From IMG/VR virus record IMGVR_UViG_3300045988_181578: 42,779 bases of DNA. One strand, given 5' to 3'. The position numbers and the translations under genes were made by a program. Below are positions 1-42,779 of the stretch, piece by piece (within the stretch, counting starts at the first letter, position 1; every line of letters starts with the position of its first letter). Source of the stretch: a virus. The notes beneath the pieces were generated by a model, which worked only from the letters and a program-made list of their open reading frames with translations, did not search any database and was not told where the DNA came from.

Positions 1-277
1 GACCGTCAGATTGTCGGGCAGGGACGTAATGCCCGTGTCGCTCAAATCAAACGAATCGCCGACCGTCAGATTGTCGGGCAGTGACGTAATGCCCGTGCCA
101 CGCAAGTTCAGCCAACCGCCGACCGTCAGATTGTCGGGCAGGGACGTAATGCCCGTGTCGCTCAAATCCAACGAATCGCCGACCGTCAGATTGTCGGGCA
201 GTGACGTAATGCCCGTGCCGCTCAAGTTCAGCCAACCGCCGACCGTAAAATTGTTGGGCAGGGACGTAAAATCATAA
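1..277. repeat. 60-bp near-perfect direct tandem repeats (about 4.6 copies) encoding 20-aa LRR units
   Basis: The unit gaccgtcagattgtcgggcag(g/t)gacgtaatgcccgtg(t/c)cgctcaa(a/g)t(c/t)(a/c)a(a/g)c(g/c)aa(t/c)cgcc repeats head to tail. The same array is present at 42480-42779. Confidence 0.9.
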
Positions 278-312
278 TTATGTTTTGATAGCCATTTTTC
301 AGTTAATTTCAT
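1..312 (-). CDS. LRR protein, N-terminal part (ATG at about 312 then in-frame 20-aa LRR repeats); gene runs off the window start and continues at the window end
   Basis: Minus-strand reading gives MKLTEKWLSKHNYDFTSLPNNFTVGG then repeats of LDLSDTGITSLPDNLTVGGS. The RBS aaaggaaag precedes the ATG. The first 37 nt of the window are identical to the last 37 nt. Confidence 0.6.
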   Translation of the reverse strand, partial: MKLTEKWLSKHNYDFTSLPNNFTVGGWLNLSGTGITSLPDNLTVGDSLDLSDTGITSLPDNLTVGGWLNLRGTGITSLPDNLTVGDSFDLSDTGITSLPDNLTV

Positions 313-323
313 ACTCTTTCCTT

Positions 324-470
324 TCAATTCCAGCAATTTGACAAAAAAATGCACCCTGTCGGGTCTTTTCCAGCCGCTCTGTCGATTCGGGCGACTTCAG
401 CGTCAATCGCAAAAAATACGGCAAAAACCAAAAATGCCGCACTTGCAATTAAACAAACAACATCTTTCAT
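324..470 (-). CDS. small single-TM membrane protein (48 aa), co-oriented immediately upstream of the LRR gene
   Basis: MKDVVCLIASAAFLVFAVFFAIDAEVARIDRAAGKDPTGCIFLSNCWN with RBS aaggaagg 6-7 nt upstream. It is the internal start of track ORF 324..593. Confidence 0.35.
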   Translation of the reverse strand: MKDVVCLIASAAFLVFAVFFAIDAEVARIDRAAGKDPTGCIFLSNCWN

Positions 471-620
471 TTTTTCCCTTCCTTTTTTCGAATCGGAATC
501 TTGCCGTCGATATTTTTTTGTACCAAATTCAAAAACAGCCGTCAACAACTTTTTATTTTTTTTCAAAAAATGTTTTGATTTCTTAAAATTCACGAATAAA
601 ATAAAGGCGTGAGGTGTAAA

Positions 621-830
621 ATGAACATTCTTGAAAAATACAGGAAAGAAAACGGCTTAACGTATGCCGAGCTTGGTGAACGTATGGGACACAAACCTTG
701 CCGTGTTTGGAAGTGGTGCAAAAAAGGAATCAGATGCCCCGCATCCATAATATCTATTTCCGAGCTTTTGAATCTCGAAACGTCAACAGTTTTAAAAGAA
801 ATGACTGAAAGGAAAGAAAAAAATGGTTGA
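621..830 (+). CDS. small HTH DNA-binding protein (Cro/XRE-like)
   Basis: MNILEKYRKENGLTYAELGERMG is an HTH-like segment, preceded by RBS gaggtg. The gene is divergent from the LRR operon. Confidence 0.5.
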   Translation: MNILEKYRKENGLTYAELGERMGHKPCRVWKWCKKGIRCPASIISISELLNLETSTVLKEMTERKEKNG

Positions 831-1077
831 AATTAAAGATGTAAACGGAGTCGATGCGTCGCGCCTACTGTCGTATCTTGAGCGAATCGAACGTTTAGAA
901 GAGGAACGAAAAGCTCTTCAAATCGACATTAAAGAAGTATTTGAAGAAGCAAAATCGGCGAATTTTGACGTAAAAGCAATCAAAGAGCTTTTGAAAATTC
1001 GCAAAAAAGACGAACTGGAACGCCAAGAACAGGAATACGTCGTCGAACAGTACCGACGCGCTCTTGGCATCGATTGA
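823..1077 (+). CDS. DUF2312/GapR-like DNA-binding protein
   Basis: ERIERLEEERKALQIDIKEVFEEAKSANFDVKAIKELLKIRKKDELERQEQEYVVEQYRRALG matches the DUF2312 (GapR) consensus pattern. Confidence 0.65.
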   Translation: MVEIKDVNGVDASRLLSYLERIERLEEERKALQIDIKEVFEEAKSANFDVKAIKELLKIRKKDELERQEQEYVVEQYRRALGID

Positions 1078-1380: not shown

Positions 1381-1605
1381 TCAACCTTTTTTTTCAGAAT
1401 CAATCAGCTCTTTGATTTCATCCCGCTTCATTCTGCCGACATAAAACAAACCGTCGGCAGTTTGCAAAACGGGGACTTGCGTTATGTTTTTCTTTGAAAG
1501 TTCTTCAGCAGGCATATCTTCAGCGTAAACAACGTTGAGGTCAGGAAACACCCTTTTTATTTCCCTGCATTTGAAACAATTACGAGTTGAAATCAGAGTT
1601 GCCAT
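1381..1605 (-). CDS. glutaredoxin-like / NrdH-like redoxin
   Basis: CFKC (CxxC) motif plus VPVLQTADGLFYVG in a thioredoxin-fold pattern; ATG with RBS aagga. The track's start is TTG at 1611. Confidence 0.55.
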   Translation of the reverse strand: MATLISTRNCFKCREIKRVFPDLNVVYAEDMPAEELSKKNITQVPVLQTADGLFYVGRMKRDEIKELIDSEKKG

Positions 1606-1767
1606 TTTCAAATCCTTTCATACAATCTATTGCGCTTTCCAAGTCTTCAATGACCTCTTTACGCACTTGTTTTGTCAGTTTTCTTATCGTCTTCATATTG
1701 AAAGTTAGACGGGGCGTATACGTCCCGTTTTATTCAATGTAAAGGATAACATCATCATCAAGCATTG

Positions 1768-2049
1768 TTATTTTCCAGTTTCTCTTTCGCACCCGCAAGC
1801 CAAGTATCCAACCGCATCAACCCACGAATCTTCGTGCTTCGGATTTCCCTGCAAGCGGGCAATTTTAAAAAGTGTCATCATAACGGCGACATCCGTTTCC
1901 GTTATACGAACGTCGATTCCGTCGTTCTGCAAATACGTCGTCCAAAGGCGGGCAATCCGCTTAAACGTGTTGGCGGGATTTCCATGCGCTTGTTCGCGAC
2001 TTCCGCATACGGTTTCAGCGGCTTTTTTGAGTAATTCTTCTCTGGTCAT
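1768..2049 (-). CDS. DUF6378-like phage protein
   Basis: HGNPANTFKRIARLWTTYL...DVAVMMTLFKIARLQGNP pattern. The start ATG overlaps the upstream stop (ATGA). Confidence 0.4.
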   Translation of the reverse strand: MTREELLKKAAETVCGSREQAHGNPANTFKRIARLWTTYLQNDGIDVRITETDVAVMMTLFKIARLQGNPKHEDSWVDAVGYLACGCERETGK

Positions 2050-2399
2050 TAGTGATGATAACTCCCGTTTGCTTGTTTCTTCCAACTGCGATTGAAGTTG
2101 ATTGTCATCTTTTTCTGAATCGCATCGTACAGTTCGTCGTCGGCATCGGCGCAATGCTTTACAATCGCCTTGCAGGTGAACATACCGATAGACGCTTCAA
2201 AGCGAAACCAGAGCGCGGAAGCCACGATAAAGCAGTCAGCCAATTCCGTGATTTGCTTTTCGGGGTCGGCTGTTTCCGCCCGCCATTCGTCAAATTCTTC
2301 GTCCAGTTTAAGCAACTGTCCCGCCTTGTCAGCATCTTTGAACGTAACAGTGTGCCAATCTGCAATTTTCTTTGCCAAGTCGTAAAATTCTTGTTTCAT
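2049..2399 (-). CDS. MazG-like nucleotide pyrophosphohydrolase-like protein
   Basis: EEFDEWRAE...ITELADCFIVASALWFRF resembles the MazG EEhxE / ELADvl helices. RBS aagga; ATGA overlap with the upstream gene. Confidence 0.4.
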   Translation of the reverse strand: MKQEFYDLAKKIADWHTVTFKDADKAGQLLKLDEEFDEWRAETADPEKQITELADCFIVASALWFRFEASIGMFTCKAIVKHCADADDELYDAIQKKMTINFNRSWKKQANGSYHH

Positions 2400-3361
2400 T
2401 TTGATTCCTTTCGAGGTGAGCATTTAAGGTATTCATCAATTACCGTTTTTAAACCGAGATGATTCATACAGTAATCGTACTGTTTGGGATGGGTTTGCTT
2501 CATTTTGTCGAATTTTGTTTCACCCTTCTTTTCGCAATGAAGCCCGTACATACAAAACATACAACCCGTTCTGTGCACGCCTGTCGTATACAGTTTTCCG
2601 TTGTATTCTTTGATTTCTCCATAAACGGAAGGTATATCAAGATTAAAACGGCGAATGTACTCCAAAATGTCTTGCTCCGTCCAAAATGATAGCGGTTTGC
2701 TCTCAGGGTGTTTTGCCGAAAATGCGTTGCAATTCGTGCCTAAGTATTTTTGCCAGCGCAGACGACTTTCCTCAGCCATCGTTCCGAGAATCGGATGTCG
2801 CCCGCTTTCCTTTTCAAACTTTTTTGCTGGATTCTTTTTCATCACGTCACAGCATTTGTTTGAAATCTCAAACGGAGCGTTTATAAGCGGTTGCCAGCAA
2901 TTCGACAAACGAGACATTGACCCTCGCGTTCCGTCTGGTAAAAGTCTTCCGTTCATACGGACGTCTTTCAGTTTGTCGGATTTTGAGTGGCGCATATCGT
3001 AAATGTATCTCGACTGCTCTTTTGAAATGATTGGATAGCCATATTTTTCAAGAACTTGTTTGAACGTGTATTTCGGCTTTATCCATATCACGTTTTCCGT
3101 ATTTTTAACGTGCTGACGCAGTTCTGGGTATTCCAAGCCAGTATCCACAAAAACTGCTGGGATGTCGGCGCAAGTTTTGATTGACCGAGCGATATGTAGC
3201 AGGACTGTGCTGTCTTTGCCTCCAGAAAAGCTGACAAAAACCTGACCGTCATATTGAAGATACCACTCCAATATCAATTCTTTCGTCCGTTTAATTTTCT
3301 CGTCAATCGGCAATTTCAACAATGCGAGTTTTTCGTCTTTTGTCATTTTGAGTCCTTTCAT
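2396..3361 (-). CDS. phosphoadenosine phosphosulfate (PAPS) reductase-family protein (PP-loop ATP pyrophosphatase)
   Basis: SFSGGKDS PP-loop motif and a C-terminal Cys cluster GCMFC...C. Start alternatives are 3361 (ATGA-coupled) or 3346 (RBS aagga). Confidence 0.8.
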   Translation of the reverse strand: MKGLKMTKDEKLALLKLPIDEKIKRTKELILEWYLQYDGQVFVSFSGGKDSTVLLHIARSIKTCADIPAVFVDTGLEYPELRQHVKNTENVIWIKPKYTFKQVLEKYGYPIISKEQSRYIYDMRHSKSDKLKDVRMNGRLLPDGTRGSMSRLSNCWQPLINAPFEISNKCCDVMKKNPAKKFEKESGRHPILGTMAEESRLRWQKYLGTNCNAFSAKHPESKPLSFWTEQDILEYIRRFNLDIPSVYGEIKEYNGKLYTTGVHRTGCMFCMYGLHCEKKGETKFDKMKQTHPKQYDYCMNHLGLKTVIDEYLKCSPRKESK

Positions 3362-3510
3362 TTTTTTGTTGCACAAAAAAAGTAGGCGCGCTTTTCGGCT
3401 TCTTCACGACTAAATTCAGCGTCAAATTCCAAAATAGCCGCACGTTCTTCAAAGTCTTCAAATTCAGCGTTTGAAAAATCAACCGCCGCCAATTTTGCAT
3501 AGTCTATCAT
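3358..3510 (-). CDS. small acidic hypothetical protein (50 aa)
   Basis: MIDYAKLAAVDFSNAEFEDFEERAAILEFDAEFSREEAEKRAYFFCATKK. ATGA overlaps at both ends link it into the operon. Confidence 0.35.
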   Translation of the reverse strand: MIDYAKLAAVDFSNAEFEDFEERAAILEFDAEFSREEAEKRAYFFCATKK

Positions 3511-3824
3511 ATCAACGCCTTTTTGTTATCAGAAAAATACTTCAAAATGTTTAATTTGTCATCCATTGTCATATTTTGCGCCCGCATACGAACGTCAAAA
3601 ATCGCGTTGTCAGCAAGTCCGAACATTTCTGGGTGGTGTGATATGAAACGTTCCTCGAAAGTCATTGTGCGCATTGTTTCCGCCGCGCGAACGCCAAAAT
3701 ACTTTTTAAGCTTTTCACGATACGCTTTTAAAGCGTTGGCGCGCGCAGTTTCTTTATCCAGTCCGCTCGCTTCTTCAAAAGCACGGTATTCAAAATAAAA
3801 AGCCCGAATTTCTTTAAATCTCAT
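3507..3824 (-). CDS. hypothetical protein
   Basis: 105-aa ORF inside the co-directional early operon. It overlaps the upstream helicase gene by 11 nt. Confidence 0.45.
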   Translation of the reverse strand: MRFKEIRAFYFEYRAFEEASGLDKETARANALKAYREKLKKYFGVRAAETMRTMTFEERFISHHPEMFGLADNAIFDVRMRAQNMTMDDKLNILKYFSDNKKALI

Positions 3825-4722
3825 TCCGCAATTCCTTTATTTCCGACCCCGTATAATTCACGGAAAGGACTTCGTAAGCGTCTTCATACTGCCCGCGCTT
3901 CAAGTCATAGTACAGGCGCGCCGCTTCGTTTCTAAAGCCACCGAATCGGTTTTTACGGATACAACAAAACGTCGCCTTGCGCGCACTTGTAGTTGACAGC
4001 TCATTCATTTCGTCATCGGGCGCAAACATAATAACAACCGTTGCTTCCTTAACCTTATTTGAGCTTCCGATAAATTCATCCATGGACGGGATTTTGAAAA
4101 GCTTTTGCCCAAACATCGGCTTACGCAAATGCGATATAGCAACGACCGCCATTTTCGTTTCATCCTGCACTTGCCGAATCGTCTTCATCAGCATTGTTTG
4201 GTGGATGTTGTCGTTCAAGTCGTAAGCGTCTTTTTCGACATAATCCAAGTGGTCAATAATCAGCAATTCGCAACCCGCTTCTTTTTCTTTCAGCATAGCA
4301 TCGACAAGCTTTTCGATTGTGAAATTCGGTTGTCTGTGAAAAACGTGCAAGCCTTTAAACGCCACATCCATTGCCGAGTCGATTTCGTTCACGATATCTT
4401 CAGTCATCAAACTGTTTGCACCGCCCTGCATAAACGCGCGTTCGGAAATGTCATAGCGTTTCGTCAGTTCAAGAAACTTCAAATACCCGACGTGCATTTC
4501 AAGGTCGTCTTCAAAGTTCTCAAGCGAAAACAGGGACACTTTGCACCGATTACGGTTTTTAAGCGCGATACTGTTTGCGATTGTGGATTTTCCCGCGCCG
4601 CTTCGGCTTCCGATTAAAATCAAATCGCCTTTCCCGATGCCGTACAGCGTCTTGTCGAGGTAATTGATTCCGAAAACGCCTACATTTTTGTTGGAATTGA
4701 CTCCCGAAAAATATGTTGTCAT
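3814..4722 (-). CDS. DnaB-like helicase C-terminal (RecA-fold ATPase) domain protein
   Basis: Walker A GSRSGAGKST, Walker B LLIIDHLD, and ISHLRK. ATGA overlap with the replisome-organiser gene. Confidence 0.8.
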   Translation of the reverse strand: MTTYFSGVNSNKNVGVFGINYLDKTLYGIGKGDLILIGSRSGAGKSTIANSIALKNRNRCKVSLFSLENFEDDLEMHVGYLKFLELTKRYDISERAFMQGGANSLMTEDIVNEIDSAMDVAFKGLHVFHRQPNFTIEKLVDAMLKEKEAGCELLIIDHLDYVEKDAYDLNDNIHQTMLMKTIRQVQDETKMAVVAISHLRKPMFGQKLFKIPSMDEFIGSSNKVKEATVVIMFAPDDEMNELSTTSARKATFCCIRKNRFGGFRNEAARLYYDLKRGQYEDAYEVLSVNYTGSEIKELRNEI

Positions 4723-5471
4723 TTCTCAAGCTCCTGTTCAATTATTTGTTTAAGCCGTGTTCGCGCCCTCTGGATAAAGAACTCGTCCCCCTGTGCTTTC
4801 ATCTGTTCCAAATACGCCATTTGGTTTTTAACAGCTTCCCGATTTAAAACGTGGGATATATCTTTGAATGTTCGAGAGTTTCTAAGCCAGTTTCGCCAAG
4901 TTGCTATCCAATCTTTTTTGGTCGCCGTTGCTCCAGTTTTTCCTGCCCAGTAATCTTTGAATGTTTGATACTCTCTTTCTGCCGATTGAAACGGATTCAT
5001 TTTCACCGATTCGGTTTCAAAATCTTTTGGCATTGTTTCATTGAAGTACGGTGAGTTTTCAAAACGGCATCCTTTTGTGATTTCCGTTTTTTCTTTAGAA
5101 ATTTCTTTTTTTAATGTTTCGTTAGAAACATCAGAATCAGATTCAGAATCAGATTCAGAATCAGATTCATAGCGCATTTGCTTGCATTTGGTAGCATTTG
5201 GTAGCATTTGCTTGCATTTGGTAGCATTTGCTTTCCCTCCTAAACTACCAGCGTTTCTGCGCTTTTCACAAACTTTTTCATATTTTTCAGCGTTTTCGTC
5301 AAAGTAATTTTTGAAAGGCAAGAATACGGCTTTCATCAATCCATTTAATTTAGGTTCGACGCCGTTCTGATAGTCTTTAATCGCCAAAAACAAATCGGCG
5401 ATTTGTTCTTTGTTGAGTTCGTCAAGAACTGAAAGCGATTCCGTGTAAATTAAAAATGATTTTTTTTTCAT
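4719..5471 (-). CDS. putative phage replication initiation / replisome organiser protein (DnaD-like C-terminus)
   Basis: N-terminus LFLAIKDYQNG...KRRNAGSLGG is organiser-like; C-terminus FKDYWAGKTGATATKKDWIATWRNWLRN is DnaD/Phg_2220_C-like. It sits next to the helicase gene. RBS gaaagg. Confidence 0.5.
   Translation of the reverse strand: MKKKSFLIYTESLSVLDELNKEQIADLFLAIKDYQNGVEPKLNGLMKAVFLPFKNYFDENAEKYEKVCEKRRNAGSLGGKANATKCKQMLPNATKCKQMRYESDSESDSESDSDVSNETLKKEISKEKTEITKGCRFENSPYFNETMPKDFETESVKMNPFQSAEREYQTFKDYWAGKTGATATKKDWIATWRNWLRNSRTFKDISHVLNREAVKNQMAYLEQMKAQGDEFFIQRARTRLKQIIEQELEK
5139..5240. repeat. short tandem repeats inside the replisome-organiser linker
   Basis: gattcagaatca x3-4 encodes SDSESDSESDSD; gcatttgcttgcatttggta units encode ANATKCKQM x2. 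Confidence 0.8.
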
Positions 5472-5590
5472 AAAAGACCTTTCAGCGTGCAGAACGTCGG
5501 GCGCGACCCCGTAAGGTTTGCCTTATACTACAAACGCCGTTCTGCATAAAAAAAGGATTTTCCGTATAAGTTTTAATCGCAGGTAAAACG

Positions 5591-5785
5591 TTATTCCTTT
5601 TCAGACATCTTGTCAAGGATTCTTCCCAAGCGCGCGCGGATTCCTAAGAGTGAAACCAAGACAATCGCTACGACAGCGTTCAATGAAAAGCTTGTGTCCA
5701 AAATTGCTTTGACAAAGGCATATTCAATGCAGAAAAGAAGCACGCCAAAGAGATTTTTTCCGATCTGATTCAATGCGTTTTCCAT
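5591..5785 (-). CDS. small membrane protein (2 predicted TM)
   Basis: Hydrophobic stretches LFGVLLFCIEYAFV and AVVAIVLVSLLGI. RBS gaaagga. Confidence 0.4.
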   Translation of the reverse strand: MENALNQIGKNLFGVLLFCIEYAFVKAILDTSFSLNAVVAIVLVSLLGIRARLGRILDKMSEKE

Positions 5786-5804
5786 AGTTTTTTCCTTTCA
5801 GTTT

Positions 5805-6263
5805 TCAAAAAAAGATTTGACCTGGTGCGGTTTGGACTTCAGAAACGCTGATACGCAGATAGGGCTTTGTGTCCGTGTATCGTTTTTCAAAGGACATCAT
5901 CACGATTTGATTGTCATCCTTGTACATCACGCCGTTTAAAGCGTCCGCAACCAGTTTTAAAACGTTGTCCGCGTCGGGTTTAACCGTCGGGCGCACTTCA
6001 TTGTCAAGCATCTGTTGTTTTAAACGCTTGGACGTGGATTTTGGGATAGGATAACCCGCTTCGACATCCAGCTTTACCGAGTCTTTGAAAACACCGACAG
6101 AGCAAACATCCATTGCGCTTTTGCACACCGACGCGATTTTTCTTTCGGCGTTCTTTGTTTCGGGTGGGGTATATGTTCGGACAAATCCACCTTGCCGAAC
6201 AAAACGCGGGCGACCTTTGCCGACCATTTTTTCCATATTCACCACAAAATTAAGCGTTGTCAT
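5805..6263 (-). CDS. rusA: RusA-family Holliday junction resolvase
   Basis: GKGRPRF...TYTP and KPDADNVLKLVADALNGVMYKDDNQI match RusA motifs. Confidence 0.8.
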   Translation of the reverse strand: MTTLNFVVNMEKMVGKGRPRFVRQGGFVRTYTPPETKNAERKIASVCKSAMDVCSVGVFKDSVKLDVEAGYPIPKSTSKRLKQQMLDNEVRPTVKPDADNVLKLVADALNGVMYKDDNQIVMMSFEKRYTDTKPYLRISVSEVQTAPGQIFF

Positions 6264-6308
6264 TTCCGTTGTCCTTTCGATTGTCTTTTGCCGTACAAAA
6301 TCGAATTT

Positions 6309-6758
6309 TTATACGTTTGGATTTGTCGAGAACAAGATTTTATCGCTTGTTTCAAAAACCATTCTTTGGTTTTGGACGGTTGTCCATAAACCAGTTTGTC
6401 GATTAAGCGTTTCTGTTTTTCTTTTTCGTTTTTCATTTGTCCGCTCCCTTAATTCTTCGTTGATTTCATTGTTCACTTCCGACCAGTCAATAGGCTTTAC
6501 CGTTTTTAGGTATTCAATAACCGCGCGACAGTCGGGGTCGTTATTGTCCCAAGGCTTCGACGGCACTTTTGACCAATCGGGCTCTTTCGTTGACCAAGTT
6601 CTTTTTTTGGCTTGTTTTTTCAGAGCTTCCGCCTTTTGAGCATAATTTGCTTTAACGCGACACTTCACAGAACAGTATTTCTGGTGGCTTCCGTGTTGGC
6701 GTTCTTTTTCTTTGAAGTATGCGCCGCACCAAGCGCATTTAATTAGTTTTTCAGACAT
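6309..6758 (-). CDS. zinc-ribbon protein, function unknown
   Basis: CAWCG...C..KC pattern CxxC...CxxxC. RBS gaggg. Confidence 0.4.
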   Translation of the reverse strand: MSEKLIKCAWCGAYFKEKERQHGSHQKYCSVKCRVKANYAQKAEALKKQAKKRTWSTKEPDWSKVPSKPWDNNDPDCRAVIEYLKTVKPIDWSEVNNEINEELRERTNEKRKRKTETLNRQTGLWTTVQNQRMVFETSDKILFSTNPNV

Positions 6759-6761
6759 TTT

Positions 6762-8213
6762 TTATCCCTCGTTTTTAAGCGGTTGCAAAGACAAGCGACC
6801 GTTTGCGGACAATTTCGCTTTTCCGCCGTCCAGCGTGTAGATTTCGGAAGCGTTGTTGTCCATCATAAATTTTTTGATGAGCAACTTGTTTTTTTCGTTT
6901 TTGTCATCATCCAATCGGATTGATTCGGCGAAAAACAATGCTTCGTTAAACCACTCGTGCGCGTCCTGATCGTCGATTTGGTCTTGTGAAGACAACATAA
7001 CCGCACCTGACGCATTGAACTTTTCAACCTCTTGATAGCACGCAAAGTCCTTTTTCATCAAAGACAGCGTTTCTTTGTTTATTTCTGGAGGCGTGTTGGA
7101 GGCGATTGCCTTTTCAAAATTCCGCAACGCCTCTTTGATTGCTTCCTGCATTTCGGGGATAATTCCGTAAACAGACGTATAAATTTCGGGCGAAAAACGT
7201 TCTTTCACTTCTTCAAAGCGTTTCTGTTCAATCAAGGACGCAATTACGCCGCGATTAAATGTGGTGTCCTTTTCCAAAGGCAAAAGCATTGAACTGATTA
7301 CAGCCGCTTCACGTCCGCAAATAAAGGAATTGTATTGGATTTGAAACAAATACTGCCATTGCAAACCGCGCGTTAAAGCATCTTCTTTTAACGCTTTGAA
7401 GTGCTGGATTGTCTTGCACTCCCAAACAGGATTCCGTTCTGTAATTGGACGCCCATTCACGTCGTCATACTGTTCTTTTTTTGAAACGGCGTATCCGTCT
7501 GGTGAACAGGAAGAAAAGGGGCTAACGTCGGGGCGTTTAATGAAGTCTTGACAACGCGTGATTTCAAAATCCACATTTTCACGCAAAGCCCATTCAACGT
7601 AAGATTCGGCGGCGTGTCCGTACACATTCAGTTCGTCGGGGATAGGCGGTTGACGGTATCCGTTTTTGATTTTGTGAAAAACAAGATAGCCCGTTGTATA
7701 CAACGGTTCGTTTAAAAACGAAGTGGCGGCGCGTTCCCCCATTATTTCTATTAACCGTTCTTTCGACACAAAGGATTTAATAACGGCGGCGATTTCAGAA
7801 CCGCCGATTGTCCCTTGTTTTTCGGACAGCCATTCGTCCGAGTTTTGAACAATGTTTCGCATCCGTCCGACGTTTTCCAAAATTTCTTTGCGCTTTTCGG
7901 CGGCGAAGTCTTCAAACGATTGTCCTTTTTCCCGCAGATAGTCTTTGAGCAAAACATTTTTACGGGATTCCAAATAGGCGCGCGTTTCGGCATCGACCAA
8001 ATCCAAGCCGTGATTCCACATTCCTTTGTCGTGAATGGCGGCGTGGCATTCGGCGCACAGCGGTAACAGGTTTTTAACGTCCCAGCGTAATAACTGATTA
8101 TTGCGCCCGATTAAATGGTGGACGTGTTCGGCGGGCTTACCGCACGGGCATTTCTGCCCGATACGCAAGCGCGGATATAACGAATCCAGTTCTTTTTCCA
8201 TTTCTTCACGCAT
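6762..8213 (-). CDS. HNH endonuclease domain fused to a YqaJ-like (lambda Exo-type PD-(D/E)XK) recombination exonuclease, plus an about 200-aa C-terminal region of unknown function
   Basis: HNH motif CPCGKPAEHVHHLIGRNN...LCAECHAAIH. YqaJ signature SDEWLSEKQGTIGGSEIAAVI with SPDGYAV and WECKT (D, ExK). Start taken at MREEMEK (RBS aggaagg), because the upstream 354-nt gene occupies the longer ORF's 5' part. Confidence 0.65.
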   Translation of the reverse strand: MREEMEKELDSLYPRLRIGQKCPCGKPAEHVHHLIGRNNQLLRWDVKNLLPLCAECHAAIHDKGMWNHGLDLVDAETRAYLESRKNVLLKDYLREKGQSFEDFAAEKRKEILENVGRMRNIVQNSDEWLSEKQGTIGGSEIAAVIKSFVSKERLIEIMGERAATSFLNEPLYTTGYLVFHKIKNGYRQPPIPDELNVYGHAAESYVEWALRENVDFEITRCQDFIKRPDVSPFSSCSPDGYAVSKKEQYDDVNGRPITERNPVWECKTIQHFKALKEDALTRGLQWQYLFQIQYNSFICGREAAVISSMLLPLEKDTTFNRGVIASLIEQKRFEEVKERFSPEIYTSVYGIIPEMQEAIKEALRNFEKAIASNTPPEINKETLSLMKKDFACYQEVEKFNASGAVMLSSQDQIDDQDAHEWFNEALFFAESIRLDDDKNEKNKLLIKKFMMDNNASEIYTLDGGKAKLSANGRLSLQPLKNEG

Positions 8214-8559
8214 TGTTTTCACCTTCCTCTGAAATGACGCCGTGTTCAAGCATCGTTCTTTTTCTGTTTCGACAACGGCGCATCGCGATATTATGCTTGC
8301 GGCGTTTATACCAATGATTTTTCCAAAAACGCGCCTTTCGCGCTTCCAACATTTTTTCTTTCCGCGACGGGAAAAGAATAAACTGGATTGTGCGGCGGGA
8401 AACATTGAACAGTTTAGCCAATCCTTTAATCGACGCGCCGTTGCACCACATCGTTTTGATGTTTTCCCGTTCTTCATCGGTCAATTTGACGCGGGCATCC
8501 TGTTCTTTCGGCACGCGCACCTTGTCGATATTGACGGCGGGGGCTTTTTTCTTTTCCAT
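8206..8559 (-). CDS. HTH DNA-binding protein with basic C-terminus
   Basis: IKGLAKLFNVSRRTIQFIL HTH. TAATG overlap with recT. Confidence 0.45.
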   Translation of the reverse strand: MEKKKAPAVNIDKVRVPKEQDARVKLTDEERENIKTMWCNGASIKGLAKLFNVSRRTIQFILFPSRKEKMLEARKARFWKNHWYKRRKHNIAMRRCRNRKRTMLEHGVISEEGENNA

Positions 8560-9668
8560 TATTTCACCCCTTTCCGCAGTTTTTTGTTAAAAGATTCAGA
8601 AACATTTTTTGACGCATCCGCGTAGCCCGCAGTTTCCAATCGGTCGCGCAGGTCATTAACGTACTTCATTTTTTTCAGCGTGTCTGCATCGTCCAAAGAC
8701 AACGACTCATCTGCATACGTTTCCAGCCTGTCCATAAACGTGGACAATTCCAAAATGACGGCAGGCGGTTCTGCATTTTCTTCCGACATTTCCATTTCTT
8801 CATCGGAAACATCGACGCTTTGCCCGTTTTCCTGCTCGCCTGTTTCGATTGACGGCGTTTCTGGTATAGGGGTAGCGGTCAATGCTTCAACGGGCGTTGT
8901 GGACGCAAATAAAGCGGTTTTTTCGCTTTGCACCTGAATGGCGGACTCGGCTTCGGGGACTTCATCGTCAAACATCGCCCGAATTTCAGAACGAATCTCA
9001 ATTTTTGCCATTGAGATTTTGAGGGCTTTTTTGAGCCCGCATTTCAGATACATATCGTTCGGAAAGAATTTCCAAGCGGGCGATTCTTTGCCGAACATTT
9101 TGCGCATCGACGCTTGTTTCGCCGCTTCCAGTTCCTCGAAAGAAAAAGTGTAAATTTTCGGGGAATAGCGGGCACACTTGACAAAAGCGTAAAACCCGAC
9201 AATCTTTTTACGTCCGAACGGATTCCCACGTTTCAAAACGAACGAGTCGCCCGCGGCGGATTCTGTCATTTCAAACGAATCGCCGTCAAACACAAGTCCC
9301 GCGTCCACTTCCAAACCGTTTTGACTCGCGACGTATAACAAGCCTTTATATGACGGTTCCGCCGTCATATTCCCGCTATTGTTGTAAAAATAGCAAAAAT
9401 CGCGTGAATCAAGCGGGATATTCCACGCCGCGACTTGTAAAAACGCCTTTTGCACCGATTCAGGCGTACAATCTAGCAGTTTTCCGCCCGTTTTCGCCGA
9501 CAAATCTTTAACACGGCAAAAATTATAAAATTCAACCGCGCGTTTTGTTAGCTCTATTTCGTCATATCCAAGACGAGCGGCGACGGCGGGAATAAACCCG
9601 CTTGATAACGGCGCGGGCAAAATAGCGGCGTTATTGTTTTTTATAACAATTTGTTTACTTTTTTCCAT
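8559..9668 (-). CDS. recT: RecT-family single-strand annealing protein
   Basis: GLEVDAGLVFDGDSFE...LKRGNPFGRKKIVGFYAFVKC...SPAWKFFPNDMYLKCGLKKALK matches the RecT pattern. Adjacent to the YqaJ-like exonuclease gene. RBS aaggaag. Confidence 0.8.
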   Translation of the reverse strand: MEKSKQIVIKNNNAAILPAPLSSGFIPAVAARLGYDEIELTKRAVEFYNFCRVKDLSAKTGGKLLDCTPESVQKAFLQVAAWNIPLDSRDFCYFYNNSGNMTAEPSYKGLLYVASQNGLEVDAGLVFDGDSFEMTESAAGDSFVLKRGNPFGRKKIVGFYAFVKCARYSPKIYTFSFEELEAAKQASMRKMFGKESPAWKFFPNDMYLKCGLKKALKISMAKIEIRSEIRAMFDDEVPEAESAIQVQSEKTALFASTTPVEALTATPIPETPSIETGEQENGQSVDVSDEEMEMSEENAEPPAVILELSTFMDRLETYADESLSLDDADTLKKMKYVNDLRDRLETAGYADASKNVSESFNKKLRKGVK

Positions 9669-9749
9669 TGATTTGCTTCCTTTCTTTCAAAAATTAACTT
9701 GTTCAAGTGGCGGCGCGTTGTCGCCACTTTGGCAAATTAACCCGTTTTC

Positions 9750-10103
9750 TTAATCGGGCAAAACCGAACCGCCCGCCGTGTACACAGCGACGTTTTCAAA
9801 GTTCTTTTCCAAAAACTCGGCGGTCAATTCTTTTGTTAATGCCGCCAATTTTGAAACAGTACGGCGATTTCCCGCATCTTCAATGACAGTTATAAATTTA
9901 CCTAAACCGTGGCAAACTCTCACGTCCCCTTTGTTTTCCCATTTTGAACGATTACAAACAATGCGGTATCCGTTTAAATCGGGAGTCCGCCAATGCCAGC
10001 GGTTTTTGAATTGTAAAGTATAGACGATTTCCCTGTTTTCCATTCTTAAAACGGTTTCGCTACCTATTTTTTCGGCTGTCCATCCATTGAATAAAGTTGT
10101 CAT
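9750..10103 (-). CDS. hypothetical protein
   Basis: 117-aa ORF with RBS ggaagga. Confidence 0.45.
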   Translation of the reverse strand: MTTLFNGWTAEKIGSETVLRMENREIVYTLQFKNRWHWRTPDLNGYRIVCNRSKWENKGDVRVCHGLGKFITVIEDAGNRRTVSKLAALTKELTAEFLEKNFENVAVYTAGGSVLPD

Positions 10104-10449
10104 TGTTTTATCCTTCCAACTGACGGCGTTTTAACGCCGATTCCAACATTTCCAAACGCCCAAGACGATTAAACAGGCGGATTTCTTCGGCAGAGTCGTT
10201 GCTCTTTGCCCATTTTTCCAAACAGGCGACACCGCCGCCGCTCTGGCAAAATCAAGCTTAACAGTTTTTTTCCAAAAATTCGCCGACGGTCATTTCCCCG
10301 AATTTCGCGCGGAAAGATTCAACTGCCGCGCGTCGCGGTATTTTTGACCGCTCACTCCCGCGAGCTGGCGAATTAAACAGCAAGAGTTTCCCGTTGTCGG
10401 CAAATCGTATATTTTTGTGTTTAACGTTTTTTCTTTCATTTTTTCCCCC

Positions 10450-10659
10450 TTATTCTTCGATTTCCATTTCTTCGACGAAAAACGTCAAATAATCGCCAAA
10501 ACAGTTTTCATAGCCGACCGATTTGTTTAAATCAGCGGCAATACGCTCCGCCGTTTCTTTGTCGTCAAATGTTTCGACGACATCCCCGTACAGATTCCCA
10601 CGACGGTCAGACCAGCCAGATTCACAGCGGGCGTTGTATGCAATAGTGTATTTTTTCAT
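10450..10659 (-). CDS. hypothetical protein (69 aa)
   Basis: RBS aaggag. First gene of the minus-strand early cluster. Confidence 0.45.
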   Translation of the reverse strand: MKKYTIAYNARCESGWSDRRGNLYGDVVETFDDKETAERIAADLNKSVGYENCFGDYLTFFVEEMEIEE

Positions 10660-11820
10660 TTTTTTAACTCCTTTTTTGTTTCCACCGATTCGGTGGTGGG
10701 GTTCTTTGCCCCTCTTGATATTGTCATTGTACGAAAAAATGAAACATCTGTCAACGAAAAAAGTATAAAATTCACACCCTTTTTACAATCAAAAAATGGC
10801 GGATTTCTGCCGTTTTTTAAGGATAGGCGCATTTTTTTTAAAACGACAACGACAAAAAGAAGAAAGCGACGGCGTATATATGGCCGAATCGGGGGAAGTA
10901 GTACAGCGGCACGCGCGTCGATTTGTTTCCACCAAAAACACCGCCTTTTTAGCCCGCCCCACAAAAAACGCCCGCAAGCGCAAAAACAACAAAACGTCAA
11001 GGACAAAGCGGACAAGCAAGAGAGTCAAGTAAGTGAGTAGGGGGGGGAACAGCACGCGCGCTGTACAGCAGCCATCCTTTTTTTTTCTTTAATAGGCGAA
11101 AATGTTTGTTTATGTTTTTCCTGTTTAAAAAAAATGAAAAAATGTTTTTGTTTTGAAAAACGCGGGAAACGGCGGTTTGCTTAGGTTTTTGGAGATTTTT
11201 GAAAAAAAGCAGAAAGCTTATATTTTCAAAAGTTTTTTTGTCAAAACGTGCTAAGTCATTGATTTTATTGAGTTTTAAAATCACATAATATATGTTATGC
11301 GACAATTAAGAGGGTGTGAAACAGCATTTTTCAAAGAAAGCGTAATGTTTTCAATGCCTTACGATAGAGAGTCAATCCTTTTTTGGTTCGGGGAGGGGGT
11401 GTCAGAAAACGGGCGGAAAAAGAAGTCCGCATACAAAAATGTACAGATTTGGCTTTTATTTTTTGTCCAAAAGAGAGATTTTAGACAAGTAGATTTAAGG
11501 AAGAGGTATCAAAAAATACGGGTGTGATACGGAGGGGCGTTTGTAAGAATGGCGGATTTCCGTTGTTTTTGGTTTGTCTAATTTTTCACGGAGTTTTTGT
11601 CTATCAATCCTTTTAAGGGTAGGGGAGTGGGTTAAAAGTGGCGGAAAAGCTTGATTTTTTGATGTTTTAGTGTACGGCGAAAAGAATTTTGGTTGGTAGA
11701 GAGAAAAAAAGGCTTGCAGGGCGGGGATGTGTTTGGTAGAAGTAGGGGAGTGAAGTTAAAGGCTTTCAAAGCGCGCTTTAACGGATTCACGGAAATGTTT
11801 GCAGAGATATAAAGTTGGTA

Positions 11821-11862
11821 AGGGGCGCGCGAGAAGCCCCTTTATCTTTTGTGTTGATTTTT
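11821..11862 (+). terminator. rho-independent terminator
   Basis: Stem aggggc / gcccct (loop gcgcgagaa) followed by ttatcttttgtgttgattttt. Confidence 0.45.
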
Positions 11863-11942
11863 GGCGGTGTTTTGATAGAATGGGGACGTTAAGCAGAAAA
11901 ACTCCTTTTTTGTTGACGTTAGGCAGTTTAACGGCTGTCTAT

Positions 11943-11975
11943 GAGCGGGTGTAAAAAAGCCCGCTCTTTTTTTTA
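11943..11975 (+). terminator. rho-independent terminator
   Basis: Stem gagcggg / cccgctc followed by T9. Confidence 0.55.
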
Positions 11976-12033
11976 TGGTTATTGTGGCGTTATTGTGCTA
12001 AGATTATCTGAATTTATCTTAAGAGGTGTCGCA

Positions 12034-17472: not shown

Positions 17473-17477
17473 AGAAA

Positions 17478-40408: not shown

Positions 40409-40687
40409 TCCGATTGAAACACCGTCGTAAAAGTCTTTGTATTCAAAGAACTTTCCGTGGAACTCGTCCCCGTCTTCAATGGCTTTCAAAAATCGCCTTA
40501 AATTGTTAACGGTTGTTCGGACTTCGGAATAAAAGTTATCCCTCCAATACGATTCAAGAGTTTCATAAACTTTAACTCACGATTGGCTTTGTTGCCGTTT
40601 TGCCAGAGACTCCACGCCGATTTTTTGATTGTCGCAATCCTGCTTGTCCGTCGATACCCGCAAATATCCGTACACCGTCATTTTCAT
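40409..40687 (-). pseudogene. decayed serine recombinase (resolvase/invertase/integrase-type) N-terminal remnant
   Basis: MKMTVYGYLRVSTDKQDCDNQKIGVESLAKRQQSQS*VKVYETL...NNLRRFLKAIEDGDEF keeps the Y-x-R-V-S-T-x-x-Q nucleophile motif and the R..L..l..GD block, but has an in-frame TGA and has lost the D..SG and DRLGR motifs. ATGA overlap with the MT-A70 gene stop. Coordinates are approximate. Confidence 0.4.
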
Positions 40688-41238
40688 ATTTCCTTGTCAA
40701 ATTTTTCAGTTTCATTTCCCCAGCAATCCCAACCTACCCGATGCTGACGGGCAAATAGTTCGATTCGTTCCCCGCCGCAAAGACTTTCGATTAAAGAATA
40801 CTGTTCATCAGGTTTTCGGGAATGTTCACGAACAACGCCTTGAATAACATTCCTTGTCGATTTGTTAAGCACATGGGGATGCCCGCGCGTTCCGACAAGC
40901 AACAATTCGGAAGCGCAACGGAAAATATATCCAGTTCCGAAAGCGGTTTTCCCGTTCTTCGTCGTTTTATGCCAAGATGCGCCCGTCTTGTATTTAAACC
41001 CCCAAGCCGCCATTGTTTCCAAAGCTTCGGGCAACATTGGAAACGTCGCCCACATAAAGAGGAAACAGTCTTTGTCGGCAATGTCGATAACAGGCAAAGT
41101 CTTAATGTCATTTGTCGGCATACAAGAATAATGCCCTTCCGCTCCTTTTGCCGTGATTCCTTTTGACGAAAACGTTTTGAACTTCCATGGCGGGTCGGCA
41201 AGAATTACGCCATATTTTTTATTCGGGAACGGAATCAT
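40684..41238 (-). CDS. MT-A70-family N6-adenine DNA methyltransferase
   Basis: ILADPPWKF (DPPW catalytic motif). RBS aagga before MIPFPNKKYG. Confidence 0.8.
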   Translation of the reverse strand: MIPFPNKKYGVILADPPWKFKTFSSKGITAKGAEGHYSCMPTNDIKTLPVIDIADKDCFLFMWATFPMLPEALETMAAWGFKYKTGASWHKTTKNGKTAFGTGYIFRCASELLLVGTRGHPHVLNKSTRNVIQGVVREHSRKPDEQYSLIESLCGGERIELFARQHRVGWDCWGNETEKFDKEI

Positions 41239-41557
41239 TTTTTTTGTCCTTATATTCAAAAGAACGTCCTTTAGTTTTCTTTCCTTTCCCGATTATTTTC
41301 GCAACGGATGTTCCGTATTTTGACATTGCGTCGTGTACCGAATCGAAAACTTCATTTGTTTCCACACAAATAACGCGACGGGAACAGAAGCCCCCTTTAC
41401 GCTTTTTAGACGACGGAATCCGTTTTTTCATTTCTGCAATAACGCCGTCGGGTGTGATTTTTGAACACTTCAACAAAAAGTCGGCAACCGCCTGTTCGGG
41501 CGTATCAAAACCGATAGGCGCAACAGCCGCTTTTTTCAAAACAACAAGATATTTCAT
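41219..41557 (-). CDS. hypothetical protein
   Basis: RBS aagga. Overlaps the MT-A70 gene start by 20 nt. Confidence 0.45.
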   Translation of the reverse strand: MKYLVVLKKAAVAPIGFDTPEQAVADFLLKCSKITPDGVIAEMKKRIPSSKKRKGGFCSRRVICVETNEVFDSVHDAMSKYGTSVAKIIGKGKKTKGRSFEYKDKKNDSVPE

Positions 41558-41559
41558 CC

Positions 41560-41820
41560 TTATTTTTCCTTTTCAATCAATTTGAACGCATCCGCTCTTA
41601 AGTCGTCGATGCCGTTTACGATTTCGGATAAAGCGTCTTTAAGCCGCTCTATTTCTTCTTCTAATTGTCGGACAGGTGTTCGATTATTCCAAGCTTGCGC
41701 TTCTTTTCCCAAAAAAGAAAATTCAACAGATGCGCCACAAAACGGATTTGTGCATTCTACCCGACCTCTCTCAAGTCTTGCTTCACTTCCACAAAAAGGA
41801 CACGGTTTAAGTTCTTTCAT
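41560..41820 (-). CDS. Lar-like restriction alleviation protein (Zn-ribbon) with C-terminal coiled coil
   Basis: MKELKPCPFCGSEARLE...C..FC matches the Lar-family CPFCG motif. RBS aaaggaaag. Confidence 0.55.
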   Translation of the reverse strand: MKELKPCPFCGSEARLERGRVECTNPFCGASVEFSFLGKEAQAWNNRTPVRQLEEEIERLKDALSEIVNGIDDLRADAFKLIEKEK

Positions 41821-41862
41821 ATTCTTTCCTTTCGATAAAAAGGGGTGGAAGTCAAAAAACAC

Positions 41863-42004: not shown

Positions 42005-42779
42005 TTACCCGAAAAACTTTTTCAATTCACTGTTTCCATACTGCCCTTCCGTGATTTTAATAATTTCGGAAACAGTCATAGTTTCTTGAATTTTATCGCT
42101 GTTCGTTTCGACAAAATGACGTGTTCCCGCTTCGCAAGCACCCGTGATAACACGATACATTTTAATCGCTTCTTCTTTCGTCAAAACACTGTTTTTATGC
42201 AGATGCTTATACGCAGACGTATCGCGTTTGCCGATTTTGTACATCAAAGAAGCGCGTGCTTCTTCTATTGTTTCCCCGTGAGCGAATCTTTCGCCGTCAG
42301 TAACAATGAATTGAACTTTAAGACCGATTTTGACTTTCCAAACGTTCTTCTTTTGGGAAAGAACTTCGCAGAAAATTCCGTCAAAAATTCTATATTTGCC
42401 CCCTTTCCAAGACAAAAGATTTTCAATGTTGAAAGTCAATTTTTTGACTTTTTCTCTTTCTTTTTGAGTAATGCCCGTGCCGCACAAGTCCAGCGAACCG
42501 CCGACCGTCAGATTGTCGGGCAGTGACGTAATGCCCGTGCCGCTCAAGTTCAGCCAACCGCCGACCGTCAGATTGTTTGGCAGGGACGTAATTTTCGTGT
42601 CGCTCAAATCCAACGAACCGCCGACCGTCAGATTGTCGGGCAGGGACGTAATGCCCGTGTCGCTCAAATCAAACGAACCGCCGACCGTCAGATTGTCGGG
42701 CAGTGACGTAATGCCCGTGTCGCTCAAGTTCAGCCAACCGCCGACCGTCAGATTGTCGGGCAGGGACGTAATGCCCGTG
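42005..42779 (-). CDS. LRR protein, C-terminal part (LRR array plus about 160-aa non-repeat C-terminal domain); continues from the window start
   Basis: Track ORF 42005..42727 carries TSLPDNLTVGGSLDLSDTGI repeats. The frame stays open to the window edge. Confidence 0.6.
   Translation of the reverse strand, partial: TGITSLPDNLTVGGWLNLSDTGITSLPDNLTVGGSFDLSDTGITSLPDNLTVGGSLDLSDTKITSLPNNLTVGGWLNLSGTGITSLPDNLTVGGSLDLCGTGITQKEREKVKKLTFNIENLLSWKGGKYRIFDGIFCEVLSQKKNVWKVKIGLKVQFIVTDGERFAHGETIEEARASLMYKIGKRDTSAYKHLHKNSVLTKEEAIKMYRVITGACEAGTRHFVETNSDKIQETMTVSEIIKITEGQYGNSELKKFFG
42480..42779. repeat. 60-bp tandem repeats (5 copies), the same family as at 1-277
   Basis: Units are identical or near-identical to the window-start array. 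Confidence 0.9.

What the first reader, a model, noticed from the sequence alone, without database searches (positions are those of the whole stretch)
1..312. LRR (20-aa TSLP-type) repeat protein gene spans both window ends; contig likely circular or terminally redundant
The window starts and ends inside the same near-perfect 60-bp tandem array (last 37 nt equal first 37 nt). On the minus strand the array is one ORF: N-terminus MKLTEKWLSKHNYDF (ATG about 312), at least 9 LRR units LDLSDTGITSLPDNLTVGGS (LxLxxTxIxxLP, like bacterial YopM/IpaH-type short LRRs), then a unique 160-aa C-terminal domain (to 42005). A tiny TM protein (324-470) sits co-directionally just upstream. LRR proteins are rare in phages, and this one could be a host-interaction or anti-defence factor. 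The DNA-level repeat identity implies recent expansion and copy-number instability, and explains why the assembly broke here.
Basis: seen in the sequence. Interest (0 to 1): 0.7.

Follow-up and report, generated by a model that had tools for sequence, protein, structure and literature searches.

The report
Phage LRR gene split by contig ends
The two ends of this window are the two halves of one phage early gene, which encodes a variable-length leucine-rich-repeat rod fused to a conserved, uncharacterised C-terminal domain; the gene is real and belongs to a large unstudied phage family, but its function is still only inferred.

The parts
1..312 (-). 5' part of the gene: start codon at 312-310, a 15-aa N-terminal cap (MKLTEKWLSKHNYDF, no signal peptide) and the first ~4.5 LRR units
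   Evidence: An identical N-terminus is found in P0001 and P0317 from independent contigs.
42005..42779 (-). 3' part of the same gene: remaining LRR units, linker, C-terminal domain and TAA stop at 42007-42005. The last 37 nt duplicate window 1-37.
1..269 (.). 60-bp tandem array, window-start half, with a 120-bp higher-order period
   Evidence: 85% at period 60, 95% at period 120; unit table
42468..42779 (.). 60-bp tandem array, window-end half
   Evidence: 89%, 5.2 copies
42008..42475 (-). Conserved C-terminal domain: a five-strand beta-meander followed by helices, basic (pI 9.4). D32, H66 and K80 are invariant. T142 is invariant in the locus set and near-invariant in A1. Y107, R108, T111 and C114 also look invariant, but they lie in or next to the motif used to retrieve the loci.
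324..470 (-). Small hydrophobic ORF (48 aa) directly upstream on the same strand. It is specific to this phage, not a family partner, and was not called as a gene in the sister contig.
471..608 (.). A+T-rich intergenic region between divergent operons; presumed early promoter region (weak consensus matches only)
609..1077 (+). Divergently transcribed HTH regulator (609-830) and GapR-like DNA-binding protein (823-1077)
40684..41862 (-). Genes immediately downstream on the same strand: Lar-like restriction-alleviation protein (41560-41862), an unknown 112-aa ORF (41219-41557) and an MT-A70-type DNA methyltransferase (40684-41259)

Best explanation
SHOWN. The window is a complete, circularly permuted genome of about 42.7 kb from a myovirus-like phage. 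The assembler cut it inside a 60-bp tandem array. That array is the coding sequence for the LRR part of a single 349-aa cytoplasmic protein: an N-terminal cap, nine 20-residue LRR units (LxLxxTxIxxLPxxLxVGGx), a flexible linker, and a conserved 154-aa C-terminal domain. The number of units differs between near-identical genomes (2, 4, 9), and the array routinely breaks short-read assemblies.

INFERRED. The protein is an early-expressed accessory factor that acts inside the infected bacterium. The acidic LRR solenoid would be the variable target-binding module. Variation is concentrated at the exposed beta-strand positions 12, 14, 16, 17 and 19 of the unit, which form the canonical LRR ligand face. 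In-frame unit gain and loss by recombination between 60/120-bp repeats would retune it quickly. The constant basic C-terminal domain, with invariant Asp, His, Lys and Cys (the Cys at the N-terminus of a helix), would be the effector, probably an enzyme or a binder of a target universal to bacteria. In this phage the gene sits in an operon with a Lar-like restriction-alleviation gene and DNA methyltransferases, so the most likely role is host takeover or counter-defence. The logic resembles IpaH-type effectors (variable LRR plus constant catalytic domain), but here directed at bacterial proteins.
For: - One gene across a circular map.
- No signal peptide in the N-terminus (read directly from the sequence).
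- Variable positions: within the window array, and across 894 units from 127 proteins, where within-protein entropy is 0.94-1.39 bits at positions 12, 14, 16, 17, 19 and at most 0.58 elsewhere.
- Unit-number polymorphism: 209, 249 and 349 aa in genomes that are 99.8-100% identical wherever they were aligned to the window, plus a novel unit in P0315.
- Constant domain: 1,480 clusters at E<=1e-3, always C-terminal among the 150 best hits listed. It is fused to LRR variants, 8-9-aa beta-helix repeats, hexapeptide-like and BspA-like repeats.
- Early-region context: this window, Tetrasphaera phage TJE1 and Riemerella phage CRP6, and metagenomic loci near cI-like repressors, RecT/ERF/Rad52, SSB, helicases and methyltransferases. 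The gene usually lies in a same-strand operon with 15-20-nt gaps.
- Charge: array net -17 (pI 4.05), C-terminal domain net +8 (pI 9.4).
Against: - No experiment and no homology to any characterised anti-defence or defence protein: PADLOC none, Pfam, NCBIfam and PHROGs none for the C-terminal domain.
- No conserved neighbour gene across the family, so guilt by association rests on a general early-region location plus this phage's own operon.
'Enzyme' is therefore a guess from conservation.
- Expression timing is inferred from gene order only. Promoter scans were uninformative.
- The N-terminal module can be a non-LRR solenoid. That weakens the idea that the concave LRR face specifically is what matters.
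- Unit counts come from short-read assemblies and may be partly collapsed.
Confidence: 0.45

Rival explanations
1. Prophage-encoded defence or superinfection-exclusion protein. The repeat solenoid senses a protein of an incoming phage, and the constant C-terminal domain is a toxic or abortive-infection effector. This would resemble the repeat-sensor plus effector logic of bacterial NLR-like and Avs proteins, but without an NTPase.
For: Family members occur on long bacterial contigs, presumably as prophages: 10 of 80 genome loci lie on contigs over 100 kb, including contigs of 1.15 Mb and 4.1 Mb. The gene is often a few genes from a cI-like repressor (13 of 88 loci). Hypervariable repeats are typical of sensors.
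Against: No match to any PADLOC model. There is no NTPase or oligomerisation module. The gene usually sits inside same-strand early operons with recombination and replication genes rather than as an isolated moron. In this phage it is co-oriented with anti-restriction genes. No tyrosine integrase was seen in the ORFs screened here, although not every ORF was scanned.
Confidence: 0.15
2. Nucleic-acid mimic or nuclease inhibitor, analogous in function to Gam, Ocr, ArdA or pentapeptide-repeat proteins. The acidic rod-like solenoid imitates DNA and blocks a host DNA-binding enzyme such as RecBCD/AddAB, a type I restriction enzyme or another nuclease. The basic C-terminal domain would assist binding or localisation.
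For: The array has net charge -17 and pI 4.05. The N-terminal repeat region is net negative in 82% of 157 family members. The N-terminal module can be any of several beta-solenoid types, which suggests that shape and charge matter more than a specific LRR face. The gene often lies close to phage recombinase, exonuclease and SSB genes, where Gam/Abc-type inhibitors sit in lambdoid phages (the lambda comparison is from general knowledge). In this window it is next to Lar and methyltransferase genes.
Against: The acidity is a tendency and not universal: 18% of members are neutral or basic. LRR solenoids are curved. No similarity to any known DNA mimic was found. This idea does not explain the strongly conserved polar residues of the C-terminal domain.
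Confidence: 0.12
3. Lysogenic-conversion effector aimed at a eukaryotic host: an IpaH/SspH/YopM-like 'LRR ligase', as proposed in silico for Edwardsiella phage Edno5 gene 47.
For: The LRR class is the same as in SlrP, SspH1 and IpaH. The Edno5 paper makes this proposal (PMC6372524).
Against: There is no NEL domain. The C-terminus is a 154-aa alpha/beta domain with no Pfam or PDB match. No secretion signal is visible. The family spans phages assigned to Proteobacteria, Bacteroidota, Clostridia, Gastranaerophilales, Elusimicrobia, Patescibacteria and an activated-sludge actinobacterium, and most of these are not pathogens. Edno5 gp47 itself shares only the array and has a different C-terminus.
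Confidence: 0.03
4. The repeats matter mainly as DNA (origin iterons, a packaging site or a recombination site), or the protein is a virion or tail component. In either case the coding LRR reading would be secondary.
For: The array is a striking DNA repeat with anomalous composition: 58.9% GC against 44% for the genome, and GC3 of 77% against 38% for the C-terminal domain.
Against: The repeat is conserved at the protein level across phyla that have different codon usage and GC content. Differences between units fall mainly at exposed positions of the LRR unit and change the amino acid. A better origin candidate lies elsewhere, in the 10-12-bp iterons at 5130-5233 next to the DnaB-like gene. 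The gene lies outside the structural module (about 11.9-33.3 kb), and in other phages it also sits in the early region.
Confidence: 0.04

Closest known systems
Vibrio FlrP (PDB 8Z5U/8Z5W/8Z60), an LRR protein bound to the rod of the polar flagellar motor
   Different: FlrP has a Sec signal peptide, is periplasmic, consists of the LRR alone (199 aa), has a positively charged surface, and serves as a structural spacer in the motor (bioRxiv 10.64898/2025.12.04.692373). The phage protein has no signal peptide, an acidic array and an extra conserved C-terminal domain.
IpaH/SspH/SlrP family (LRR plus NEL E3 ubiquitin ligase) and YopM, type III secretion effectors
   Same: Short bacterial LRR class, with sequence and fold similarity of the LRR part. 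Modular logic of a variable LRR recognition domain followed by a constant C-terminal domain that carries an invariant Cys.
   Different: No NEL domain. The C-terminal domain is half the size, alpha/beta rather than all-helical, and unrelated in both sequence and fold searches. There is no secretion context. The gene is phage-borne, in an early operon, and found across many non-pathogen lineages.
Edwardsiella phage Edno5 gene 47 ('LRR ligase', PMC6372524)
   Same: A phage early-left-operon gene with the same LRR array type: 49% identity over 236 aa, 8 units.
   Different: Its C-terminal ~75 aa are not the conserved domain; only a 16-aa weak match was found, E 0.016. The published function is an in-silico suggestion only.
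Uncharacterised homologues in deposited phage genomes: Tetrasphaera phage TJE1 (orf50/51 region), Riemerella phages CRP5/CRP6 ('ribonuclease inhibitor'), Dulem virus 31
   Same: They carry the same C-terminal domain (31-47% identity) after a repeat region, and sit in the early, recombination and replication region.
   Different: The repeat types differ: LTSLPEGFNPTVGG in TJE1 and BspA-like repeats in CRP6. The annotations are hypothetical, name-by-similarity or mis-split; in TJE1 the gene is divided between an opposite-strand orf50 and a 132-aa orf51.

Membership tests
Leucine-rich repeat (LRR) superfamily, short bacterial 20-residue class | Tandem 20-30-residue units carrying the conserved segment LxxLxLxxNxL | tested here: met
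   Nine units of exactly 20 residues with LxLxxTxIxxLP. Thr replaces the ladder Asn, and the first Leu of the canonical segment is displaced (V at -4). Consensus over 894 family units is.
Leucine-rich repeat (LRR) superfamily, short bacterial 20-residue class | Significant match to curated LRR profiles | tested here: inconclusive
   Pfam LRR_1 scores 22.2 bits against a cut-off of 20.6, but no single stretch is significant. LRR_4 and LRR_14 fall below their cut-offs. Many homologues carry precomputed LRR_1, LRR_4 or LRR_14 hits. NCBIfam gives only sub-threshold hits to SlrP, XopL and XopAC.
Leucine-rich repeat (LRR) superfamily, short bacterial 20-residue class | Homology to, and fold of, a solved LRR solenoid | tested here: met
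IpaH/SspH/SlrP NEL E3 ligases | C-terminal NEL domain (~300 aa, all-helical, catalytic Cys) | tested here: not met
IpaH/SspH/SlrP NEL E3 ligases | Delivery by a type III secretion system into eukaryotic cells | not testable with these tools
   The host is unknown. The family's spread over many non-pathogen lineages argues against this feature.
FlrP-type flagellar LRR proteins | Sec signal peptide, periplasmic location, LRR-only architecture | tested here: not met
   The N-terminus MKLTEKWLSKHNYDF has no hydrophobic signal segment, and an extra 154-aa domain is present.
Known anti-phage defence system proteins (PADLOC-DB) | Match to any defence-system profile | tested here: not met
   No family at E<=0.01 for 8 diverse family members, the isolated C-terminal domain of the window protein, and the small ORF.
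DNA-mimic anti-restriction or nuclease-inhibitor proteins (Ocr, ArdA, Gam, pentapeptide-repeat proteins) | Elongated, highly acidic surface imitating the DNA backbone | tested here: inconclusive
   The array has net charge -17 and pI 4.05, and 82% of family N-terminal regions are net negative. No surface-geometry analysis was possible and there is no sequence or fold similarity to known mimics.
Circular or circularly permuted phage genome | Independent assemblies collinear across the junction, with different start points | tested here: met
   L001 spans the junction. The sister contigs begin at window ~11563 and ~3265. 42779-37, 42561-119 and 42441-119 differ by exactly 300 and 420 nt. Assembly alone cannot tell a circular molecule from terminally redundant, permuted linear virion DNA.

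The most novel reading that the evidence does not exclude
The gene would represent a large, undescribed class of modular phage effectors that work inside bacteria. A new kind of small Cys/His/Asp-containing catalytic domain, absent from Pfam, PHROGs and the PDB, is aimed at different host or defence proteins by interchangeable, rapidly expanding and contracting beta-solenoid modules (LRR, beta-helix, hexapeptide-like). This would be a bacterial-virus counterpart of IpaH-type 'LRR plus enzyme' effectors, with unit-number variation acting as a contingency mechanism in the arms race with host immunity.
Probability: 0.2. Interest if true: 0.8.

Novelty: new variant of a known kind. Interest (0 to 1): 0.5.

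Why it matters
The part about the contig ends is routine. A tandem repeat broke a circular phage assembly, and that matters mainly for how such contigs are handled. They should be rotated before gene calling, because otherwise this gene is lost or truncated. The same failure affects about half of the family's loci in public data (78 of 160) and causes mis-annotation in deposited genomes. The protein is the more valuable lead. It is a widespread phage early-gene family: about 1,480 clusters at 50% identity, found in phages from many bacterial phyla. Its conserved C-terminal domain is missing from every reference library searched and has enzyme-like invariant residues. That domain is coupled to hypervariable solenoid repeats. 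Families with this signature (early operon, rapid diversification, next to anti-restriction genes) have repeatedly turned out to be counter-defence or host-takeover factors. This one is therefore a concrete, testable candidate and a domain worth defining.

Tried and rejected
2. NEL E3 ligase. No domain found.
3. Small TM ORF as a functional partner. It is present upstream in only 4 of 83 loci.
4. A conserved neighbour gene. Clustering 648 neighbour ORFs gave no partner in more than 13 of 88 loci, and the top cluster is simply a cI-like repressor.
5. 'Stand-alone' C-terminal-domain proteins. The two cases I checked (P0141, P0151) are truncated by 100-N scaffold gaps inside arrays.
6. Array as origin iterons. 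Disfavoured.
7. Megablast of the structural region against deposited phages found no match, so the phage has no close cultured relative.
8. The AlphaFold-DB Foldseek library was unavailable. BFVD returned only unannotated family members.
9. Two exact-protein look-ups failed, probably because of start-codon choice. The terminase and RecT look-ups worked instead.
10. Promoter and terminator scans were uninformative.
11. Literature searches for the repeat motif, and for phage LRR anti-defence proteins, found nothing specific.

Full report
**Observation**

The first 269 nt and the last 312 nt of the window belong to the same 60-bp tandem array. Tandem Repeats Finder gives 85% matches for 1-269 and 89% for 42468-42779 at period 60, and 95% at period 120 for 1-269. 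The only exact terminal overlap is 37 nt. In-register overlaps of 97 nt (8 mismatches) and 157 nt (4 mismatches) also exist.

Removing the 37-nt duplicate and reading the minus strand gives one ORF of 349 aa. It starts at ATG 312-310, preceded by AAAGGAAAG, and ends at TAA 42007-42005.
- Residues 1-15 form a cap, MKLTEKWLSKHNYDF.
- Nine 20-residue units follow, in two alternating subtypes (GGWLNL and G[GD]S[LF]DL). Units are 82-98% identical at DNA level, which explains the 120-bp higher-order period.
- A non-repetitive 154-aa C-terminal part ends the protein.

The unit is 60 nt, so every in-register join keeps the frame. Only the unit count changes: 9, 8 or 7. The small ORF at 470-324 exists. 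It encodes 48 aa, is very hydrophobic and has its own Shine-Dalgarno-like sequence.

**The junction is real and the map is circular**

An exact-sequence look-up of the closest homologue, P0001, led to an independent ENA contig, k119_346160 (42,561 bp). It is 99.8-99.9% identical to the window. On it the gene is internal and unbroken. One flank matches window 10312 down to 26 and the other matches window 42711 down to 32005.

The end of that contig corresponds to window 11445. Its start extrapolates to window 11563. That is a 119-nt terminal overlap, equal to the assembler's k-mer. A third contig, k119_242876 (42,441 bp), is 100% identical over window 4559-18392 and starts at about window 3265.

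After trimming overlaps the three lengths are 42,742, 42,442 and 42,322 nt. They differ by exactly 300 and 420 nt, which is 5 and 7 units. This agrees with the protein lengths of 349, 249 (P0001) and 209 aa (P0317).

So the window is a complete, circularly permuted genome. Assembly alone cannot say whether virion DNA is circular or terminally redundant and permuted.

**Copy-number variation and assembly failure**

The 90%-identity cluster of this protein holds products of 209, 229 and 249 aa. It also holds two N-terminally truncated products from JGI contigs of 42,765 and 42,915 bp. Those contigs, like the window, end inside the array. One truncated product, P0315, has a unit (GGSLYLRG) that is absent from the window. 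The arrays therefore differ in content as well as length. Close relatives at 82-88% identity have two units.

Collapse by short-read assemblers cannot be excluded for the 2- and 4-unit versions.

The effect is general across the family.
- In 78 of 160 related loci the contig ends within 1.2 kb upstream of the C-terminal domain, mostly within 600 nt. That places the end inside the array. Only 16 loci end that close downstream.
- Two apparent stand-alone C-terminal proteins are truncated by 100-N scaffold gaps inside arrays.

**What the repeats are**

Pfam calls the LRR only marginally: LRR_1 scores 22.2 bits against a cut-off of 20.6. Comparison with solved structures is clear.
- The array matches Vibrio FlrP (PDB 8Z5U) at E 1.4e-25. 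It also matches SlrP at 2e-9 and SspH1 at 3e-4.
- FlrP is a periplasmic 20-residue LRR beta-solenoid bound to the flagellar rod (bioRxiv 10.64898/2025.12.04.692373).

The unit is LxLxxTxIxxLPxxLxVGGx, with Thr at the Asn-ladder position. There is no signal peptide, so the protein is cytoplasmic. The array is strongly acidic, with net charge -17 and pI 4.05.

Variation is concentrated at unit positions 12, 14, 16, 17 and 19. This holds within this array and across 894 units from 127 proteins. By general knowledge of LRR structure, these are the solvent-exposed residues of the beta-strand face that binds ligands.

**The C-terminal domain**

The model of residues 194-349 is confident: pLDDT 88, a five-strand beta-meander followed by helices.
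- BFVD returns only unannotated family members.
- Pfam, NCBIfam, PHROGs and PADLOC have no model for it. This holds even when 111 or 27 diverse members are scanned one by one.

A profile of the domain alone finds 1,480 clusters at E<=1e-3 (919 at E<=1e-10) among 1.84 billion representatives. In the 150 best hits listed, the domain is always at the extreme C-terminus.

D32, H66 and K80 are invariant, and T142 is invariant in the locus set and near-invariant in the A1 alignment. The motif YRxITGACxxG also appears invariant, with C114 at the N-terminus of a helix. That motif's invariance in the locus set is partly built in by the retrieval pattern. The domain is basic, with net charge +8 and pI 9.4. 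This pattern looks like an active or ligand-binding site. I could not inspect the coordinates to test whether the residues cluster.

**Family architecture**

The constant domain follows N-terminal tandem repeats of several kinds:
- the TSLPDNLTVGG LRR
- LTSIPEGFNPTVGG, NAKISLPNCSSVGG and IRSDAELPNLQTVGG variants
- 8-9-residue SGDYAQIGS and AGxxSTQ beta-helix-like repeats
- hexapeptide-like repeats
- BspA-like repeats

Unit counts run from none or almost none to 18. Conversely, Edwardsiella phage Edno5 gp47 has the same LRR array but a different C-terminus.

The family occurs on phage-sized contigs and in prophage-like regions. The contigs are assigned to Proteobacteria, Bacteroidota, Clostridia, Gastranaerophilales, Elusimicrobia, Patescibacteria and an actinobacterial phage. 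In deposited phage genomes it is rare: 11 of 50,697 records match, and 4-5 distinct phages have the C-terminal domain. The annotations there are 'hypothetical', 'ribonuclease inhibitor' or mis-split ORFs.

**Context**

The window encodes terminase, portal, protease, major capsid, sheath, tape measure, baseplate and tail-fibre proteins. It also encodes RecT, a YqaJ-like exonuclease, a DnaB-like helicase and RusA.

The LRR gene is the second ORF of a minus-strand operon. That operon diverges from an HTH regulator and a GapR-like gene (609-1077, plus strand). Downstream of the LRR gene come a Lar-like restriction-alleviation gene, an unknown ORF and an MT-A70 methyltransferase. A further N6 methyltransferase lies downstream.

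In TJE1, CRP6 and the metagenomic loci the gene also lies in the early region. Its neighbours there are repressors, ERF/RecT/Rad52, exonucleases, SSB, helicases and methyltransferases. It usually sits in a tight same-strand operon. No single neighbour is conserved. The small membrane ORF is not a partner.

**Mechanism**

These points are shown:
- one gene
- an LRR solenoid
- a conserved, novel C-terminal domain
- a variable unit number
- an early-region location

This part is inferred, with confidence about 0.45. The protein is a cytoplasmic early factor. Its solenoid binds a lineage-specific bacterial target and is retuned by in-frame unit gain and loss. The phage's own RecT and exonuclease would favour such recombination. 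The constant domain acts on, or anchors to, something universal in bacteria. The most likely role is host takeover or counter-defence.

The rivals are:
- a prophage defence sensor-effector (0.15)
- a DNA-mimic nuclease or restriction inhibitor (0.12)
- an IpaH-like effector aimed at eukaryotes (0.03)
- a DNA-level or virion role (0.04)

**Comparison and novelty**

The protein works like IpaH/SspH-type modular LRR effectors, but it fails their defining test because it has no NEL domain. It is homologous to FlrP in the LRR only. The only published mention I found is the in-silico 'LRR ligase' note on Edno5 (PMC6372524).

The contig-end effect is ordinary. The protein family is an undescribed combination of a known repeat with an unknown domain. 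I therefore rate it as a new variant of a known kind, with interest 0.5.

Noticed in passing
window 28678-33364: A serine recombinase (28678-29571) gives its best PHROG match to 'DNA invertase' (E 3.5e-37). It abuts oppositely oriented tail-fibre and baseplate genes. A ~26-48-nt motif (AACGTTTAA..TGCCGAA..TTAAT) recurs in both orientations at 29262-29287, 29876-29923, 32727-32774 and 33339-33364. This looks like a Gin/Cin-type invertible or shufflon-like host-range switch.
   Followed up: partly
window 5130-5233: Two adjacent short tandem arrays: TCAGAATCAGAT x3.2, and GCATTTG[CG]T[TA] x6 with a 10-bp period. They lie inside ORF 4719-5471 (minus strand), just upstream of the DnaB-like helicase gene (3814-4722). 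This is a plausible replication origin with iterons inside an initiator gene, as in lambda O.
   Followed up: no
window 1-269 and 42468-42779; loci L001-L164: The array is compositionally anomalous: 58.9% GC against 44% for the genome, and GC3 of 77% against 38% in the C-terminal half of the same gene. Across the family the repeat region is GC-richer than the C-terminal domain in 58 of 63 loci (median +12.6 points; GC3 +10). Amino-acid composition explains part of this. The GC3 excess is unexplained; biased gene conversion or recent acquisition are possibilities.
   Followed up: partly
window 37114-41862: A cluster of anti-restriction-type genes lies on the same strand as the LRR gene: Lar-like (41560-41862), an MT-A70 methyltransferase (40684-41259) and an N6 methyltransferase-like gene (37114-37950). 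YopX and HTH genes lie between them.
   Followed up: partly
window 1381-3376: A PAPS-reductase-like gene (2396-3376) lies next to genes with a dATP/dGTP pyrophosphohydrolase-like hit, DUF6378 and a thioredoxin-domain hit. This may be a nucleotide or DNA-modification module.
   Followed up: no
L083 (Tetrasphaera phage TJE1, HQ225832.1) 4838-5645: The GenBank annotation splits the family gene. orf50 is called on the opposite strand over the repeat region, and orf51 (132 aa) covers only the C-terminal domain. The intact ORF is 4908-5645 (245 aa, GTG start).
   Followed up: yes
L165 4300-5420; L166 4200-5440: Both scaffolds carry a 100-N gap inside the repeat array, so the gene callers output only the 137-142-aa C-terminal domain as if it were a stand-alone protein.
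   Followed up: yes
L157 2982-5279 and six other loci: In 7 of 88 loci with a complete gene, a neighbouring gene within four positions is a second repeat protein with similar repeats. Five of these lie immediately upstream, and one is 765 aa. This suggests local duplication of the repeat module.
   Followed up: no
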